NCBI GenBank assembly: GCA_025455685.1
Contig: JALOMB010000001.1
Span: 19,673 to 83,672 of the forward strand
DNA length: 64,000 bases
Direction: 5' to 3'
Source: Chitinophagales bacterium
GTDB lineage: Bacteria; Bacteroidota; Bacteroidia; Chitinophagales; JADJOU01
Below are positions 4,326 through 64,000 of this stretch, piece by piece; positions within the stretch are counted from its first letter, which is position 1, and the number at the start of each line of letters is the position of its first letter. Made by a program: the position numbers and the translations under genes. A model generated the notes under the pieces. It was not told the origin of the DNA and did not search any database. It saw nothing but the letters and a program-made list of their open reading frames with translations.

Positions 4326-5513
4326 ATGGAAAATATTAAGTTTTCAATTATTATCCCTACTAGAGATCGTGCTGAAACCCTTAGATACACCTTAAAAACT
4401 TTAGTAAATCTAAACTATAAAAACGCAGAATTTATCATCAGTGACAACTGTAGTTCTGATAACACATCCAAAGTTATTAAAGAATTTGTTGATCCCAGAA
4501 TAATTCATATAATGCCTGAAAAAAGGTTATCAATGTCACATAATTTTGAATTTGCTTTTTCTTACGCTACTGGTGATTTTATAACTTGTATGGGTGATGA
4601 TGATGGTATATTACCTGAGACGTTGAACTATGTTTGTGCTCTTATTAACAAATACGGAAAAATGCCAATTTCTACTCAATATTCCAAATTTAACTGGGGC
4701 AATAACTATTTTAAGCCTAATTTTCTAAGTATCAACATGAGAAGTGGTTATCGAGTTTATAATACAAAGGAAACTTTAAAAAGATTTTTTGAATTCAAAA
4801 ATTATTATTCCTCCTTACCTATTGTTTACTACGGATTTATCCCTAGAGATTTATATGAATCTGTAAAAGAAAAATCTTCAGGAAACTCTTTTTTTCAGTC
4901 TATGATTCCAGACGTTTATTCTAGTCTAGTGCTTTCTAATTTTACTGAACATCATATTGTATCCTTAAGGCCTTTGTTTATAGCTGGAATTTCTAAATTT
5001 AGCAATGGGCAGTCTACACTTACTGGCAAAAATGAAAAAGAAAAAAATGAAGGCTTAAAATTTTTATCTGAAGCTCCTTCTATACCTTTTCATCCTAAAG
5101 TCGCGTTTTCGCTTTCTTCAATATATTTAATTATTTTAGAGAGTTATTTCCAATTGCTTGATAACGTATCTGATGTAAGGTTGAATTTAAATATAGAAAA
5201 ATTTCTTAACAAAACCTATCATATTCATTGTTCTCAAAATGACCCTAAAATTATAGAAGCAATACAAGAAACTTGTAAAATAAATAAAATAGTTCTTGAT
5301 ACAAATTTTAAAATAAAAAAACAATCTCAATTTTCCAAGTTTAAAACTAAACTTAAATATAACCTCACGTATTATTCTATTTCTGATGAAAATATTGAAA
5401 ATATTGAAAATGCAGTTAGAATTCATGAATCTATATATAATTCAAAATCTCATCTTCTTTTTAATTTTTTTCGAAGACTTTCTGAAATTATCTCTAGAAC
5501 TGTAAACCTATAA
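4326..5513 (+). CDS. glycosyltransferase family 2
   Basis: N-terminal FSIIIPTRDRAETL, ISDNCSSD and GDDDG acidic motifs typical of GT-A/GT2. Confidence 0.7.
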   Translation: MENIKFSIIIPTRDRAETLRYTLKTLVNLNYKNAEFIISDNCSSDNTSKVIKEFVDPRIIHIMPEKRLSMSHNFEFAFSYATGDFITCMGDDDGILPETLNYVCALINKYGKMPISTQYSKFNWGNNYFKPNFLSINMRSGYRVYNTKETLKRFFEFKNYYSSLPIVYYGFIPRDLYESVKEKSSGNSFFQSMIPDVYSSLVLSNFTEHHIVSLRPLFIAGISKFSNGQSTLTGKNEKEKNEGLKFLSEAPSIPFHPKVAFSLSSIYLIILESYFQLLDNVSDVRLNLNIEKFLNKTYHIHCSQNDPKIIEAIQETCKINKIVLDTNFKIKKQSQFSKFKTKLKYNLTYYSISDENIENIENAVRIHESIYNSKSHLLFNFFRRLSEIISRTVNL

Positions 5514-60807: not shown

Positions 60808-61557
60808 CTAATACCGAGTTAATCCTCCACAAACAGCCAAAGTCTGACCTGTGATATAAGAGCTCATATCAGACCCTAAAAACACAACGGTTTGAGCGAC
60901 TTCATTAGCTTGTGCAAAACGACGCATAGGAATTTGAGCTAAGTATTTAGTTTTCAATTCCTCAGGAAGACTATCCGTCATTTCCGTTTCGATGAAGCCC
61001 GGAGCAATTACATTACAGCGAACATTTCGAGAACCTAGCTCATCAGCAAGAGATTTGCTAAAGCCAATAATTCCTGCTTTGGATGCCGCATAGTTTGCTT
61101 GGCCCGCCTGCCCTAGAAGTCCTATGACAGAAGAAATATTTACGATAGATCCTTTTCTTTGTTTGAGCATGTGTTGCGATACGAATTTAGATAGATTAAA
61201 CGTAGATTTCAGATTATTATTCATAACCGTATCCCACTGCTCTTCCGTCATACGAAGCATTAATGTATCTCGAGTGACCCCTGCATTATTCACCAAAATA
61301 TCAATTTGACCGAAATCACCTATGACGGCTTCCGTAAGCGACTTAGCAGCCGAAAAATCTGCTGCATCGGACTGATAGGCTTTGGCATGAATACCTAAGG
61401 CAAGGAGAGTTTTTTCTAATTCTAGCGCGGATGCAGTACTCGAATGATACGTAAAGGCGACGTTTGCACCTGAGTTTGCTAGCGCGAGACAAATAGCCTT
61501 TCCGATACCACGGCTGCCTCCTGTGACTAAAGCGACTTGATTTTGGAGCAATTTCAT
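60808..61557 (-). CDS. fabG: 3-oxoacyl-[acyl-carrier-protein] reductase
   Basis: TGGSRGIG, NNAG, YAASKAG. Confidence 0.85.
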   Translation of the reverse strand: MKLLQNQVALVTGGSRGIGKAICLALANSGANVAFTYHSSTASALELEKTLLALGIHAKAYQSDAADFSAAKSLTEAVIGDFGQIDILVNNAGVTRDTLMLRMTEEQWDTVMNNNLKSTFNLSKFVSQHMLKQRKGSIVNISSVIGLLGQAGQANYAASKAGIIGFSKSLADELGSRNVRCNVIAPGFIETEMTDSLPEELKTKYLAQIPMRRFAQANEVAQTVVFLGSDMSSYITGQTLAVCGGLTRY

Positions 61558-61627
61558 ATGATAATTTTTAGAAAGACAAAGAAAACAAATTTTCTTTTAA
61601 TGCAGTGAAAAAAATCCAAATATCCCA

Positions 61628-61635
61628 CAAATATA
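61628..61635 (-). promoter_or_regulatory. -7 box (TATATTTG on minus strand), candidate fabG promoter
   Basis: Plus strand CAAATATA; 71 nt upstream of the ATG at 61557. Confidence 0.3.
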
Positions 61636-61639
61636 ACGA

Positions 61640-62776
61640 TTAAACGAAGAATTTACGTATTTTTTCTATGATAAAATTTCTTTGGTCGTCGCTCATATGC
61701 GTATGCATCGGGAGCGATATCACTTCTTGACTCAGTTGCTCACTATTCGCTAAGGAAATCCTATCATCATATTCCGTATGATAAGCAGGCTGCTGATGAA
61801 GCGGTTTTGGATAATAAATCATGGATGGGATCTGATGAGATAAAAGGAATTTTTGAAATTCATCTCGCCTTCCATCCAAAATCTTAAGGGTATATTGATG
61901 ATATACATGACTAGAATAATCCATGGTTTGAGGCGTAAGGATTGCGTCAATATCATTTAAAGCATTCGTATAAAAACTAGCTAGATTTCTTCTAGAGGCT
62001 ATATATTCATCTAAATGAGTAAGCTTAATAGTTAAAATGCCAGCATGAATTGCATCTAGTCTAGAATTAACTCCAACTATGTCGTGAATGTATTTCTGAC
62101 TTAACTGTCCATGGTCACAAATTCCTGATATCTGTTGGAATAAATCTGCCTTATTACAGAAAATTGCACCGCCATCACCATAAGTACCTAGATTTTTGGA
62201 AGGAAAAAAAGAAGTAGTACCTAAGTCGCCTATTGTACCACAGAATTTTTCTGAACCGTTGCTAAATCTATATTTTGCGCCAATTGCTTGGGCGTTATCT
62301 TCTATAATCGCTACATGATGTTCTTTTGCCCAAGCTAGGATAGGCTCCATATCGGCACTCTGACCATAGAGATGAACGGGTATGGCAGCTTTGATATCCC
62401 GATGAATTTCAGAAATTAAATCAAGTTGAGAAACGTCTAAATTAAACGATTTCATACAGACGTCTATGAAAACAGGTTTGAGTTGCAACAAAGCAATTAC
62501 TTCCGCAGAAGCGACATAAGTCCAAGAAGGCACGAGGACTTTGTCCCCAGGCTTTAAGTTAAGTGCCATTAAAGCGACCTGTAAAGCATCTGTTCCATTG
62601 GCACAACCTAAAACGTATTTAGATTGAATATATTGACTCAGTTGGTCTTGAAATTCAGAAACGTAATTACCTTTGATGTAGTGGCTAGAGGATAGAATTT
62701 CAGAGATTTTTTCTAAGATTTGTGGTTTGATATCCTCGATTTGGGCAGTCAAATCCACCATTTGTATTGGTTTCAT
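61640..62776 (-). CDS. DegT/DnrJ/EryC1/StrS family sugar aminotransferase
   Basis: GCANGTDAL, SFFPSKNLGTYGDGGA (PLP lysine), NSRLD. Confidence 0.85.
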   Translation of the reverse strand: MKPIQMVDLTAQIEDIKPQILEKISEILSSSHYIKGNYVSEFQDQLSQYIQSKYVLGCANGTDALQVALMALNLKPGDKVLVPSWTYVASAEVIALLQLKPVFIDVCMKSFNLDVSQLDLISEIHRDIKAAIPVHLYGQSADMEPILAWAKEHHVAIIEDNAQAIGAKYRFSNGSEKFCGTIGDLGTTSFFPSKNLGTYGDGGAIFCNKADLFQQISGICDHGQLSQKYIHDIVGVNSRLDAIHAGILTIKLTHLDEYIASRRNLASFYTNALNDIDAILTPQTMDYSSHVYHQYTLKILDGRRDEFQKFLLSHQIPSMIYYPKPLHQQPAYHTEYDDRISLANSEQLSQEVISLPMHTHMSDDQRNFIIEKIRKFFV

Positions 62777-62795
62777 ATTGTGTGATTTATAGCGA

Positions 62796-62803
62796 CAAAA
62801 GTA
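62796..62803 (-). promoter_or_regulatory. -7 box (TACTTTTG on minus strand) for DegT aminotransferase gene
   Basis: Plus strand CAAAAGTA; 20 nt upstream of the ATG at 62776. Confidence 0.4.
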
Positions 62804-62833
62804 GAAAATTTATCCTAAAATCAGATTATTTAT

Positions 62834-62841
62834 TATCTTTG
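62834..62841 (+). promoter_or_regulatory. -7 box TATCTTTG for rnpB
   Basis: TAnnTTTG match ending 5 nt before the first P1 nucleotide (62847). The predicted TSS coincides with the mature 5' end region. Confidence 0.55.
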
Positions 62842-62846
62842 CGCCG

Positions 62847-63212
62847 GTAAAAGCCTATAATAGACTATCGCTGCGCGCAAGCGGAGAGGAAAGTCCGGAC
62901 AGCACAGAGCATCGTGCCACCTAACGGGTGGGCCTAGACGGAAAGTGTCGCAGAAAATAACCGCCTCACTAGATTTCTAGTGAGGTAAGGGTGAAAAAGT
63001 GAGGTAAGAGCTCACTATTTGCTTAGGCAACTAAGTGGATGGATAAACCCCACGAGCTGAAAGACCAAATAAATCTCGAAGAGGCTGCTCGCTTCGCCCA
63101 TTAGGATAGAGAAGGGTAGGTCGTAAGAGGCTATTCGCGAGGATAGTCCTAGATAAATGATAGTCATCGGGGTGACTCGAGACAGAATCCGGCTTATTTT
63201 ATAGGCTTTTAC
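62847..63212 (+). ncRNA. rnpB: RNase P RNA, bacterial type A
   Basis: Perfect 14-bp P1 helix (62847..62860 pairs with 63199..63212); CR-I GAGGAAAGTCCGGAC; GGGTGAAAAAGTGAGGTAAGAGC; CR-V ACAGAATCCGGCTTA; T-run after P1; -7 box 6 nt upstream. Confidence 0.9.
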
Positions 63213-63248
63213 TTTTTTTATTTTAACAGGAAAATTAAAGAATTTTTG

Positions 63249-63256
63249 TATTTTTG
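63249..63256 (+). promoter_or_regulatory. -7 box TATTTTTG upstream of a 22-codon sORF and the ATPase gene
   Basis: TAnnTTTG match. The ATG of the sORF (63261) begins 5 nt after the box. Confidence 0.35.
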
Positions 63257-63290
63257 GGAAATGAATCCAGAAGAATTTGTATCGTTTAGT

Positions 63291-63298
63291 TATATTTG
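63291..63298 (+). promoter_or_regulatory. -7 box TATATTTG, alternative promoter for the ATPase gene
   Basis: TAnnTTTG match 28 nt upstream of the ATG at 63326; lies inside the candidate sORF. Confidence 0.35.
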
Positions 63299-63325
63299 TA
63301 TTTTTGTTTATTATTTAAAAATTCC

Positions 63326-64000
63326 ATGAAAATTAAAGCCCTCTATTTAAAAAATTTTAAAAGATTTTCAGAGCTAAATATTGAAGATATTCCTGTAGAT
63401 AATAAACTAGTACTTTTGATAGGTTCTAATGGATCGGGAAAATCCTCTGTTTTTGACGCTTTTGGATATATTGACAATATCATTAAATGTGATGTAAATG
63501 TCAATCAAGAATTCTACAAATATTATAAAAAAAATGCAAATGAACAAATGTCTATTAAACTCTGTATGAACGATTCTGAGATTATTCTAACGGATAAACT
63601 ATTAACTACGCCAAATAATATAAAGGACTTAAATACAAATTCGTTTTATGGAAGGACGAGCTTCAGACAGATTTCAAAACTTACTAGAATTTCCTTGGGA
63701 CAAGGAGATTCGCTAGAAATCCAAAAAGACAACGATAGGCCAAAAAGTTTTATTGAGCGAGATATTAGATTTGAAAATGATGTAGAGAAAATCACGGCGG
63801 AAATTCTAAAAGATTTCTTCAGAAATAATGAAAATAATAAAATAAAAGAAACGATTATCGACCCTATAAATAAAGCGCTTCACAATGTTTTTAATCACAA
63901 GAATGGTACAAGTTTACAATTAATAGAAATCATTCCCCCACTTGAAGGCAAAGTAGCTCAAATTACCTTTAAAAAAGGAAAATCAGAATTTCATTATAAT
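63326..64000 (+). CDS. P-loop ATPase of the SMC/RecF/OLD-like (AAA_15/21/23-type) class, 3'-truncated by window edge
   Basis: MKIKALYLKNFKRFSELNIEDIPVDNKLVLLIGSNGSGKSSVFDAFGY is the classic N-terminal beta-strand plus Walker A of this class. The frame is open to nt 64000. It is not in the ORF track because it has no stop. Confidence 0.6.
   Translation, partial: MKIKALYLKNFKRFSELNIEDIPVDNKLVLLIGSNGSGKSSVFDAFGYIDNIIKCDVNVNQEFYKYYKKNANEQMSIKLCMNDSEIILTDKLLTTPNNIKDLNTNSFYGRTSFRQISKLTRISLGQGDSLEIQKDNDRPKSFIERDIRFENDVEKITAEILKDFFRNNENNKIKETIIDPINKALHNVFNHKNGTSLQLIEIIPPLEGKVAQITFKKGKSEFHYN

What the first reader, a model, noticed from the sequence alone, without database searches (positions are those of the whole stretch)
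63213..64000. Accessory-looking locus starting immediately after rnpB: candidate leaderless 22-aa hydrophobic sORF ATGA-coupled to a P-loop SMC/OLD-like ATPase (truncated)
A -7 box (63249..63256) sits 5 nt before an ATG at 63261. That ATG opens a 22-codon ORF (MNPEEFVSFSYICIFVYYLKIP). Its TGA stop (63327..63329) overlaps the ATG (63326) of the next gene in the classic ATGA arrangement. The next gene encodes the N-terminus typical of SMC/RecF/OLD-class ATPases (LYLKNFKRF...LLIGSNGSGKSSVFDAFGY). This class supplies the ATPase component of many anti-phage and abortive-infection systems, such as the Gabija, Septu, PARIS and Lamassu types. The ATPase gene runs off the window, so its partners are unseen. 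A small hydrophobic peptide coupled to such an ATPase, inserted next to a stable-RNA gene, is not an architecture I recognise. The caveat is that short ORFs arise easily by chance in AT-rich DNA. A second box (63291..63298) inside the sORF could also drive the ATPase alone.
Basis: partly seen in the sequence, partly recalled or inferred. Interest (0 to 1): 0.55.

Follow-up and report, generated by a model that had tools for sequence, protein, structure and literature searches.

The report
Insertion scar beside a single-gene ATPase-nuclease
The small "peptide gene" is a leftover copy of the start of the neighbouring tRNA-deaminase gene, created when a single accessory gene was inserted there; that gene encodes a fused ATPase and Toprim-type nuclease of the OLD/PARIS anti-phage kind, so this is a tidy but fairly ordinary case.

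Summary
A near-identical metagenome contig (99.94 %) extends the window by 8.6 kb and changes the interpretation.

- **The ATPase gene.** It is 556 aa and stands alone. It has a compact ABC-type ATPase (AAA_15/AAA_21) fused to a roughly 225-aa C-terminal domain. That domain carries invariant E…DxD…E motifs placed as in a Toprim fold, and it gives weak hits to AriB/DUF4435. There is no partner gene. The next gene is the housekeeping tRNA adenosine deaminase tadA.
- **The sORF.** A 22-nt direct repeat (GGAAATGAATCCAGAAGAATTT) brackets the 1.72-kb insert. The sORF's promoter box, ATG and first six codons (MNPEEF) are the displaced duplicate of the tadA start. The other 16 codons read through the insert's T-rich leader. 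The ATGA overlap follows automatically from the Met-Lys/Arg start, which 31 of 44 homologues share. No homologue has a related sORF.
- **The family.** Homologues are sporadic, mainly in Bacteroidota, and sit in different neighbourhoods. Four other loci carry comparable flanking duplications. In two of them the copies differ only at synonymous sites.

Verdict: a real accessory insertion and a divergent member of the single-gene OLD/fused-PARIS type. The defence function is inferred, not shown.

The parts
62851..63212 (+). rnpB (bacterial RNase P RNA, class A). A neighbour only, not part of the insert.
   Evidence: Rfam RF00010, 253.9 bits, full-length model match.
63249..63256 (+). TAnnTTTG box (TATTTTTG). 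Most likely the original promoter -7 element of tadA, now separated from tadA by the insert.
   Evidence: Sequence. It lies 4 nt upstream of the duplicated tadA ATG. The Bacteroidota -7 consensus is from general knowledge.
63257..63278 (+). Left copy of the 22-nt direct repeat GGAAATGAATCCAGAAGAATTT. It consists of 4 nt of leader, the ATG and 5 further codons of tadA.
   Evidence: An identical copy starts 6 nt after the ATPase stop on the extending contig (L090 4093..4114, virtual window 65002..65023), where it opens the intact 149-aa deaminase gene. blastn-short E = 1e-8.
63261..63329 (+). The 22-codon sORF. It is a chimera: codons 1-6 (MNPEEF) are the duplicated tadA start and codons 7-22 are read-through of the insert's T-rich leader. 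It stops at the TGA inside ATGAAA.
   Evidence: TadA begins MNPEEFHVYAMNQAL. No related sORF in 28 homologue loci. The leader RNA is unstructured, z = +1.97.
63279..63325 (+). The 47-nt leader of the inserted gene, carrying two overlapping TAnnTTTG boxes (63291..63298 and 63299..63306). Probably the ATPase gene's own promoter.
   Evidence: The boxes start 35 and 27 nt upstream of the ATG. 21 of 44 homologue loci have such a box starting 12-54 nt upstream of the ATG (the window locus also has one at 77 nt), against a background of 0.05 per 80 nt.
63326..64000 (+). The first 225 codons of a 556-codon ATPase-Toprim gene. It continues to virtual window position 64996. Walker A (GSNGSGKS) lies at 63422..63445.
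   Evidence: Translation. Family matches. The full length comes from contig Ga0392395_0009004, which is 99.94 % identical over window 60910..64000. The same protein, apart from one residue, is MCU0327429.1, 'AAA family ATPase [Chitinophagales bacterium]'.

Best explanation
The region 63213..64000 is the left end of a 1.72-kb single-gene insertion. It spans window 63279 to virtual position 65001 and landed in the first codons of the tRNA adenosine deaminase gene tadA, 48 nt downstream of rnpB.

**How the sORF arose.** The event duplicated 22 nt of the target, namely 4 nt of leader plus the ATG and five codons. The left copy kept tadA's old promoter box and start codon. It now opens a 22-codon reading frame that runs through the insert's T-rich leader. 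That frame ends at the TGA which any Met-Lys start (ATGAAA) contains. The sORF is therefore a scar, not a gene.

**How tadA is now expressed.** The right copy of the repeat opens the intact tadA gene 9 nt after the ATPase stop. tadA is probably now co-transcribed with the insert (inferred).

**What the inserted gene encodes.** It encodes one 556-aa polypeptide. The N-terminal part is a compact ABC-type ATPase with Walker A, an LSAGEKE signature, a Walker B DE pair and an H-loop. The C-terminal part is a roughly 225-aa Toprim-like domain with invariant E353, D395-R-D397 and E423.

**Most likely function (inferred from the family, not shown).** It is a stand-alone OLD/PARIS-type anti-phage effector. 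The ATPase would act as sensor and switch, licensing the Toprim nuclease to cut nucleic acid on infection. The target would be tRNA, as for AriB, or DNA, as for Class 1 OLD. The outcome would be growth arrest or abortive infection.

**How the gene spreads (partly shown).** It appears to move between related genomes together with a short piece of the adjoining core gene, by recombination in that piece.
For: **Shown: extension and anatomy**
- The extending contig matches the window with 2 mismatches in 3,091 nt.
- The gene order is DegT, rnpB, the 556-aa ATPase, the 149-aa deaminase (dCMP_cyt_deam_1/MafB19), DinB_2 and further housekeeping genes.
- The 22-nt exact direct repeat flanks the gene.
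- TadA homologues have N-termini of the same length, so this ATG is the native start.
- No terminator-like site lies between the ATPase gene and tadA.
- The insert's GC is 0.297 against 0.367 in the flanks.

**Shown: the protein**
- Pfam matches AAA_15, AAA_21 and SMC_N.
- PADLOC's best hit for the full-length protein is AriAB, E = 8e-18 (window protein) and 2.9e-19 (Raineya homologue). In the Raineya protein the alignment runs into the C-terminal domain.
- PADLOC AriB hits the window protein's C-terminal domain at E = 1.1e-6.
- Pfam DUF4435 hits 5 of 27 C-terminal-domain members, best E = 7e-5.
- The catalytic residues are invariant in 24 full-length homologues.
- The AlphaFold model of the C-terminal domain has pLDDT 90.8. 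It shows four beta-alpha units, with the Glu at the end of strand 1 and DRD directly after strand 3. That is the Toprim arrangement.
- The full-length model has pLDDT 85.9. Its ATPase half matches PtuA, SMC and Rad50 heads at E around 1e-12.

**Shown: it is a single-gene system**
- No neighbouring gene family recurs across clades.

**Shown: signs of an effector module**
- The same C-terminal domain is also fused to a larger AAA_15 ATPase, an LRR-Roc-COR GTPase, weak (sub-threshold) receiver-like matches and unknown N-terminal domains.

**Shown: mobility**
- Flanking duplications occur around homologues in L054 (173 nt, the 3' end of carB), L104 (65 nt, the 3' end of a convergent gene), L103 (24 + 17 nt) and L008 (11 nt).
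- All 9 differences between the copies in L054 and L104 are synonymous. Both copies therefore come from functional alleles.

**From the literature**
- PARIS occurs as a two-gene cassette or as a single-gene fusion (PMC9122126, PMC11464382).
- Class 1 OLD proteins are single genes away from other defence genes, and one defends Vibrio cholerae (PMC10568477, PMC12392090).
Against: - No experiment or transcript data exists for this locus.
- The Toprim assignment rests on motifs, a model and sub-threshold HMM hits.
- Foldseek found nothing significant for the C-terminal domain in the PDB (best E = 0.27; the OLD C-terminal domain 6nk8 scored E = 0.42) or in BFVD.
- A profile of the domain hit no PDB sequence, AriB included.
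- Pfam DUF4435 does not reach its threshold on the full-length proteins.
- The family is absent from sequenced phages and from IMG/VR viral contigs, unlike classical PARIS. It has one distant plasmid hit.
- No empty site (rnpB-tadA without the insert) was found. The only close copy of this tadA is the same contig, and relatives at 58-64 % identity have different neighbours.
- Within some clades the gene keeps one position, so it can be stably inherited.
- 22 nt is short for homologous integration, so the origin of this particular duplication is unresolved.
Confidence: 0.75

Rival explanations
1. The sORF is a real small gene, either a leader peptide or a hydrophobic partner. On this reading it is translated from a leaderless transcript and coupled through ATGA to control or assist the ATPase.
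For: The box, ATG and ATGA geometry are real. An ORF of this length ending at that TGA is uncommon in shuffles, P = 0.018. If the old tadA promoter still fires, the sORF would be the first ORF on that transcript (inference).
Against: The first 6 codons and the promoter are a duplicate of the tadA start. No similar sORF occurs upstream of 28 homologues. The few short ORFs ending at the same TGA there share only a chance match with this one. 31 of 44 homologues begin ATGA simply because residue 2 is Lys, Arg or Asn. The hydrophobic run is 13 residues (VSFSYICIFVYYL). It comes from translating T-rich promoter DNA, and the shared 'YIC' with L051 is the TATATTTG box itself. The cassette's own boxes lie inside the sORF at the position typical of homologues.
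Confidence: 0.07
2. The gene is a housekeeping DNA-repair ATPase (RecF/RecN/SbcC/Rad50-like) that belongs at this position.
For: NCBIfam gives weak N-terminal hits to RecF, SbcC, Rad50 and SMC, all P-loop region only and all far below their cut-offs. The flanking genes are housekeeping.
Against: All those hits cover only about 45-85 residues. The architecture is ATPase plus a Toprim-like domain, not RecF. The distribution is sporadic: 118 tblastn-confirmed relatives, many of them distant, among the candidates checked in 185,579 species genomes, with a best identity of 59 %. Neighbourhoods vary. A GC dip and a flanking repeat mark an insertion. Many copies are split or truncated.
Confidence: 0.03
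3. The gene is chiefly a selfish element rather than a defence gene. On this reading the ATPase-nuclease promotes its own spread or retention, in a homing-like or addiction-like way. That would explain why it sits tightly against essential or core genes (tadA, carB) with duplicated target ends.
For: Flanking duplications occur in 5 loci, and the right boundary always lies within about 10 nt of the stop codon. In the window, the essential gene tadA probably depends on transcription through the insert (inference). Pseudogenisation is frequent. Class 1 OLD enzymes nick DNA (PMC12392090).
Against: The synonymous-only differences between repeat copies (9 of 9) argue against cut-and-fill target duplication by the element's own nuclease. 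They favour ordinary recombination with a donor allele. The cassette ends share no sequence. Most loci have no repeats at all. The gene is stably inherited inside some clades.
Confidence: 0.12

Closest known systems
PARIS, single-gene fused form (AriA-AriB fusion; PADLOC model 'AriAB')
   Same: An AAA_15/AAA_21 ABC ATPase is followed in one polypeptide by a DUF4435-like Toprim domain. AriAB is the top PADLOC model and AriB hits the C-terminal domain. Fused forms are described in PMC9122126 and PMC11464382.
   Different: The protein is much shorter, 556 aa against a 694-position AriAB profile. The scores are low (62-67 bits). Pfam DUF4435 is sub-threshold or absent. No sequence or fold match to solved AriB was found. 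The family is not found on phages, satellites or viral contigs. Its trigger and target are unknown.
Class 1 OLD family nucleases (P2 Old, Thermus scotoductus OLD, Vibrio cholerae OLD, E. coli YbjD)
   Same: [quoted passage not shown] The gene stands alone, is not in a defence island and has no helicase partner (PMC10568477, PMC7049728).
   Different: No significant hit to OLD Toprim structures was found (6nk8, E = 0.42). Nothing resembling the helical dimerisation insert described for TsOLD (PMC7049728) was identified in the roughly 330-aa ATPase part, but this was not examined directly. The best structural matches are PtuA, SMC and Rad50 heads. The motif context (VENKD, DRDF, SIENYLYHP) is closer to DUF4435 than to OLD.
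Septu / retron-associated PtuA ATPases
   Same: These are the closest solved structures and sequence matches for the ATPase half, along with PADLOC PtuA hits.
   Different: PtuA works with a separate HNH nuclease, PtuB, and in retrons with a reverse transcriptase. Here the nuclease is a fused Toprim-like domain, and no PtuB or reverse transcriptase is nearby.
Integrative islands that duplicate the end of their target gene (attL/attR at tRNA or protein-gene ends)
   Same: Direct repeats made of the end of a conserved host gene bracket the accessory DNA, and the host gene stays intact.
   Different: The insert is a single gene with no integrase. The repeat length varies from 11 to 173 nt and the repeat sequence differs at every site.

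Membership tests
OLD-family / ATPase-Toprim nucleases (broad sense) | N-terminal ABC-type ATPase with Walker A, signature motif, Walker B and H-loop | tested here: met
   AAA_15, AAA_21 and SMC_N matches. GSNGSGKS, LSAGEKE, DEID-H and H290 are invariant in 24 homologues. The model matches PtuA, SMC and Rad50 heads at E around 1e-12.
OLD-family / ATPase-Toprim nucleases (broad sense) | C-terminal Toprim fold with a conserved Glu after strand 1 and DxD after strand 3 | tested here: inconclusive
   E353 and D395-R-D397 are invariant and sit at the expected places in a pLDDT-90.8 model. However, Foldseek found no significant Toprim match in the PDB or BFVD.
Class 1 OLD | A single gene with no UvrD/PcrA-like helicase, retron or other defence partner adjacent | tested here: met
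   The downstream gene is tadA and the upstream neighbour is rnpB. No neighbour recurs across clades.
Class 1 OLD | Sequence or structural similarity to characterised OLD Toprim/catalytic domains | tested here: not met
   The profile search of the PDB returned no OLD hit. Foldseek scored 6nk8_B at E = 0.42.
PARIS (fused AriAB) | AAA_15/AAA_21 ATPase together with a DUF4435 (AriB) domain | tested here: inconclusive
   PADLOC AriAB is the top hit (62-67 bits) and AriB scores E = 1.1e-6 on the C-terminal domain. Pfam DUF4435 appears in only 5 of 27 members, best E = 7e-5, and in none of 4 full-length proteins at E < 0.1.
PARIS (fused AriAB) | Activation by phage anti-restriction proteins and cleavage of host tRNA | not testable with these tools
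   This needs phage challenge and RNA analysis. The mechanism is known for E. coli B185 PARIS (PMC11464382, PMC12409363).
Translationally coupled small-protein partner (the sORF as a gene) | Conservation of the small ORF with the large gene in homologous loci | tested here: not met
   None of 28 homologue loci has a related upstream ORF. The start of the sORF duplicates the tadA start.
RecF/RecN/SMC housekeeping ATPases | A full-length match above the family cut-off and a conserved genomic position | tested here: not met
   RecF scored 26.5 bits against a cut-off of 172, and SMC about 20 bits against cut-offs of 567 and 729. Neighbourhoods vary.

The most novel reading that the evidence does not exclude
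The family may be a recombinase-free, single-gene mobile cassette. On this reading, an ATPase-Toprim gene travels with a short surrogate end of an adjoining core gene (tadA, carB and others) and integrates by single-crossover recombination in that piece. This leaves the core gene intact and leaves variable-length direct repeats. Its C-terminal domain would be a distinct, uncurated Toprim-like effector module. That module is also plugged into Roc-COR GTPases, weak (sub-threshold) receiver-like domains and other ATPases, and its target may differ from that of AriB or OLD.
Probability: 0.2. Interest if true: 0.55.

Novelty: new member of a known kind. Interest (0 to 1): 0.3.

Why it matters
- It shows how a convincing-looking "leaderless sORF coupled by ATGA" can be produced purely by the duplication that accompanies a gene insertion. 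That is a useful caution for small-ORF discovery in AT-rich genomes.
- It assigns a likely role to a Bacteroidota-centred protein family that databases label only as "AAA family ATPase". The family looks like a compact single-polypeptide ATPase-Toprim effector of the OLD/PARIS type.
- Single-gene forms of these systems are the least understood ones. The reviews cited here ask whether fused AriAB differs from Class 1 OLD, so a small, divergent, chromosomal clade could serve as a comparison point.
- The flanking duplications of core-gene ends, with only synonymous differences between copies, hint at how such genes move without a recombinase of their own.

Tried and rejected
- **Looking for the window's own genome in the species-genome collection.** The ATPase alignment was used as the query. 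The genome is absent and the best hit is 59 % identical.
- **Exact look-up of the neighbouring DegT protein.** This did find the extending contig.
- **Empty-site search.** An exact 30-mer spanning the predicted uninterrupted rnpB-tadA junction gave 0 hits in JGI metagenomes. TadA homologues other than the identical copy are at most 65 % identical, and the two examined (58 and 64 %) have other neighbours. Presence or absence in close relatives could therefore not be tested.
- **Conserved partner gene.** None recurs across clades.
- **A programmed stop or read-through.** L003, L006 and L007 carry stops within one codon of the same position. This was rejected as a general feature, because most genomic copies are uninterrupted and other split copies break at many different positions.
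- **Target-site duplication made by the element's own staggered cut.** This was disfavoured because 9 of 9 differences between repeat copies are synonymous.
- **Regulatory RNA structure in the leader.** None; z = +1.97.
- **Link to tRNA or stable-RNA genes as integration sites.** Only the two Chitinophaga loci have an adjacent tRNA-Pro.
- **Phage, plasmid or viral-contig relatives.** None, apart from one 30 % plasmid hit.
- **Fold and sequence searches of the C-terminal domain.** Searches against the PDB and BFVD gave nothing significant.
Full report
**1. The observation**

- rnpB lies at 62851..63212 (Rfam RF00010, 253.9 bits).
- A TAnnTTTG box, TATTTTTG, lies at 63249..63256.
- An ATG lies at 63261 and opens a 22-codon ORF encoding MNPEEFVSFSYICIFVYYLKIP.
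- The ORF's TGA (63327..63329) overlaps the ATG at 63326.
- The next ORF is a P-loop ATPase gene that runs off the window after 225 codons.
- The second box lies at 63291..63298. A third box, TATTTTTG, follows directly at 63299..63306.

In shuffles of the 113-nt spacer, an ORF of at least 22 codons ending at that TGA occurs in 1.8 %. The arrangement is therefore not noise. The question is why it is there.

**2. Extending the window**

The window's ATPase fragment has no close relative. The best hit among 5.8 billion proteins is 58 % identical. The best hit in one genome for each of 185,579 species is 59 %.

An exact look-up of the neighbouring DegT-type aminotransferase (window 61640..62776, minus strand) found JGI contig Ga0392395_0009004. 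This contig matches window 60910..64000 with 2 mismatches in 3,091 nt and continues 8.6 kb further. Locus L090 has the window's orientation, and window position = L090 position + 60909.

On this contig:
- The ATPase gene is 556 codons long (virtual window 63326..64996).
- Nine bases after its stop comes a 149-aa deaminase (dCMP_cyt_deam_1/MafB19). Sources annotate it as tRNA(adenine34) deaminase, that is, TadA.
- After that come a DinB_2 protein, a class IV aminotransferase, an Rce1-like protease and a CTP_transf_1-family (cytidylyltransferase) gene.

There are no defence partners. The protein is in NCBI as MCU0327429.1, 'AAA family ATPase [Chitinophagales bacterium]', from a MAG.

**3. What the sORF is**

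The deaminase gene begins ATGAATCCAGAAGAATTT (MNPEEF...), the same 18 bases as the sORF. The identity extends 4 nt upstream. An exact 22-nt direct repeat, GGAAATGAATCCAGAAGAATTT, lies at window 63257..63278 and again 6 nt after the ATPase stop (E = 1e-8).

TadA homologues have N-termini of the same length, so this ATG is the native tadA start.

The simplest reading is that rnpB was originally followed, 48 nt later, by tadA. tadA's box at 63249..63256 sat just upstream of its ATG. A 1,723-nt segment was then inserted after codon 6, duplicating 22 nt.
- The left copy keeps the promoter box and the ATG but now reads into the insert's leader.
- That leader is T-rich promoter DNA, so it translates into Phe, Ile, Tyr and Val codons. 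This accounts for the "hydrophobic" look of the peptide.
- The frame stays open for 16 more codons and ends at the TGA inside ATGAAA.

That TGA is not a designed coupling signal. 31 of 44 homologues start ATGA because residue 2 is Lys, Arg or Asn.

Upstream ORFs ending at the same TGA occur in four other loci. Their sequences are unrelated to the window's sORF. The one shared tripeptide, YIC in L051, is the translation of the promoter box TATATTTG.

The boxes inside the sORF start 35 and 27 nt upstream of the ATPase ATG. That is where homologues carry theirs: 21 of 44 loci have a box, most of them starting 12-54 nt upstream, against a background of 0.05 per 80 nt.

The leader has no notable RNA structure. 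No terminator-like site separates the ATPase gene from tadA. tadA is therefore probably now transcribed through the insert (inference). tadA is known to be essential in E. coli (my own knowledge).

**4. What the inserted gene encodes**

The ATPase half:
- The N-terminal roughly 330 residues match AAA_15, AAA_21 and SMC_N.
- They carry invariant Walker A (GSNGSGKS), signature (LSAGEKE), Walker B (DEID) and H-loop residues.
- In a full-length AlphaFold model (pLDDT 85.9), this half matches retron/Septu PtuA, SMC and Rad50 heads at E around 1e-12.
- The best PDB sequence hit, 9n69, is also a retron-IA ATPase.

The C-terminal half:
- The roughly 225 C-terminal residues have no Pfam hit at threshold.
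- Their invariant residues are E353 (in VENKD), D395-R-D397, E423 (in SIENY) and H428-P-x-N431.
- A model of this domain is confident (pLDDT 90.8). It shows four beta-alpha units, with the Glu at the end of strand 1 and DRD directly after strand 3, followed by a helical bundle. That is the Toprim layout (my knowledge of the fold).

HMM support is weak but specific:
- PADLOC AriB scores E = 1.1e-6 on the window protein's own C-terminal domain.
- Pfam DUF4435 appears in 5 of 27 members, best E = 7e-5.
- PADLOC's fused-PARIS model AriAB is the top hit for the full-length proteins. In the Raineya homologue its alignment runs into this domain.

Against this, Foldseek found nothing significant in the PDB or BFVD. 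A profile of the domain hit no PDB chain. I therefore call the domain Toprim-like and DUF4435-related, not a demonstrated AriB.

A profile search of 1.84 billion representative proteins found 382 relatives. Among them the domain is also joined to other N-terminal modules:
- a larger AAA_15 ATPase (952 aa);
- an LRR-Roc-COR GTPase (843 aa);
- weak, sub-threshold receiver-like matches (about 350 aa);
- unannotated N-terminal regions.

An output domain shared among different NTPase or switch modules is the usual pattern of effector domains in conflict systems (my knowledge).

**5. Distribution and mobility**

- Homologues of about 535-575 aa occur mostly in Bacteroidota (Cytophagales, Chitinophagales, Sphingobacteriales). 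Scattered copies occur in Acidobacteriota, Chloroflexota, Spirochaetia, Verrucomicrobiota and others.
- Neighbours differ between clades, and no partner gene recurs.
- Within two clades the position is conserved, so the gene can also be inherited vertically.
- Many copies are broken. There are 344-aa forms without the C-terminal domain, copies with in-frame stops, and split ORFs.
- No relative was found in 50,697 phage records or in IMG/VR. One 30 % hit lies on a Zymomonas plasmid.

Four further loci show direct repeats bracketing just this gene.

| Locus | Repeat | What is duplicated |
|---|---|---|
| L054 (Luteolibacter) | 173 nt, 96 % identical | The last 173 nt of carB |
| L104 | 65 nt, 97 % identical | The 3' end of a convergent reductase gene |
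| L103 | 24 + 17 nt | Sequence overlapping the last 9 nt of the ORF |
| L008 (Raineya) | 11 nt | A segment containing a promoter box |

In every case the right-hand repeat starts within about 10 nt of the stop codon.

All 7 differences between the copies in L054 and both differences in L104 are synonymous. With roughly a quarter of random changes expected to be synonymous, that is about a 4e-6 event under neutral decay. Both copies therefore come from functional alleles.

This argues against a transposase-like staggered cut. It favours arrival of the cassette together with a piece of the neighbouring core gene from a related donor, followed by recombination in that piece (inference). How the first such junction forms is not resolved. 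Whether the window's identical 22-nt repeat arose the same way is also not resolved.

**6. Likely mechanism**

Shown:
- A single gene was inserted.
- Its product joins an intact ABC ATPase to a domain with an intact Toprim-type acidic motif set.

Inferred from the related systems:
- The ATPase acts as a sensor or switch.
- The Toprim domain is a metal-dependent nuclease released or activated on phage infection, causing growth arrest.

Two precedents exist:
- In E. coli PARIS, AriA senses anti-restriction proteins and AriB cleaves tRNA-Lys (PMC11464382, PMC12409363).
- Class 1 OLD proteins are stand-alone ATPase-Toprim nucleases that cut or nick DNA, and at least one defends its host (PMC7049728, PMC12392090, PMC13261556).

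Which substrate this family attacks cannot be told from sequence. I put about 0.55 on "anti-phage effector". I put about 0.75 on the whole anatomical account, meaning the insertion, the scar sORF and the single-gene ATPase-Toprim.

**7. Comparison and novelty**

The architecture is that of Class 1 OLD and of fused PARIS. The literature itself notes that the boundary between these two is unclear (PMC10568477).

The family differs in several ways:
- it is compact (556 aa);
- its C-terminal domain falls below curated thresholds;
- it has no match among solved structures;
- it is absent from the phage and viral collections searched and near-absent from plasmids (one distant hit).

That makes it a divergent new member of a known kind, not a new kind. 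The sORF, which was the unusual part of the finding, is explained away.

**8. Verdict**

- Observation: confirmed.
- Interpretation: partly supported. It is an accessory, defence-type ATPase. It has no peptide partner and no unseen partners, and the rnpB adjacency is incidental.
- Interest is modest at 0.3. The useful by-products are the scar mechanism for spurious sORFs, the annotation of the family, and the synonymous-only flanking duplications.

Noticed in passing
L054 3616-3788 and 5494-5666; L104 2833-2897 and 4611-4675; L103 about 2679-2760 and 4638-4702; L008 1086-1096 and 2793-2803: Homologues of the ATPase-Toprim gene in four other genomes are bracketed by direct duplications of the end of a neighbouring host gene or promoter (173, 65, about 24+17 and 11 nt). 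All 9 differences between copies in L054 and L104 are synonymous, so both copies derive from functional alleles.
   Followed up: partly
L048 5830-5909 and 9231-9310 (Chitinophaga MAG); L046 5851-5925: In L048 the homologue lies between two 99 %-identical tRNA-Pro(tgg) genes 3.4 kb apart. An ORF that looks (by eye) like a serine-recombinase fragment overlaps the second copy, which gives the region an island-like look. L046 has a single tRNA-Pro 75 nt upstream of the gene.
   Followed up: partly
L003 1729-1731, L006 7150-7152, L007 7165-7167: Three independent homologues have a stop codon within one codon of the same position, between the Toprim Glu and DxD motifs (two of them in frame with the downstream part). 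Other split copies break elsewhere, so this looks like pseudogenisation, but the coincidence is unexplained.
   Followed up: partly
P0316 (843 aa), P0330 (952 aa), P0359 and P0363 (about 350 aa), P0327 and P0345 (about 424 aa): The same C-terminal Toprim-like domain is fused to other N-terminal modules: LRR-Roc-COR GTPase, a larger AAA_15 ATPase, weak (sub-threshold) receiver-like matches, and unannotated regions. It behaves as a shared effector module that no Pfam model captures at threshold.
   Followed up: partly
L001 8001-9035, L004 8001-9035; P0061 (Flavitalea flava, 387 aa): Some homologues are 344-aa ATPase-only forms that lack the Toprim-like domain. P0061 keeps only the C-terminal helical tail fused directly to the ATPase.
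   Followed up: no
virtual window 64994-65008 (L090 4085-4099): The deaminase gene tadA now starts 9 nt after the ATPase stop, with no promoter box or terminator-like site between them. Its expression probably depends on transcription through the inserted gene.
   Followed up: partly
window 63747 and 61036: These are the only two differences between the window and the metagenome contig. The change at 63747 (G to A) converts Ser141 to Asn in the ATPase.
   Followed up: no
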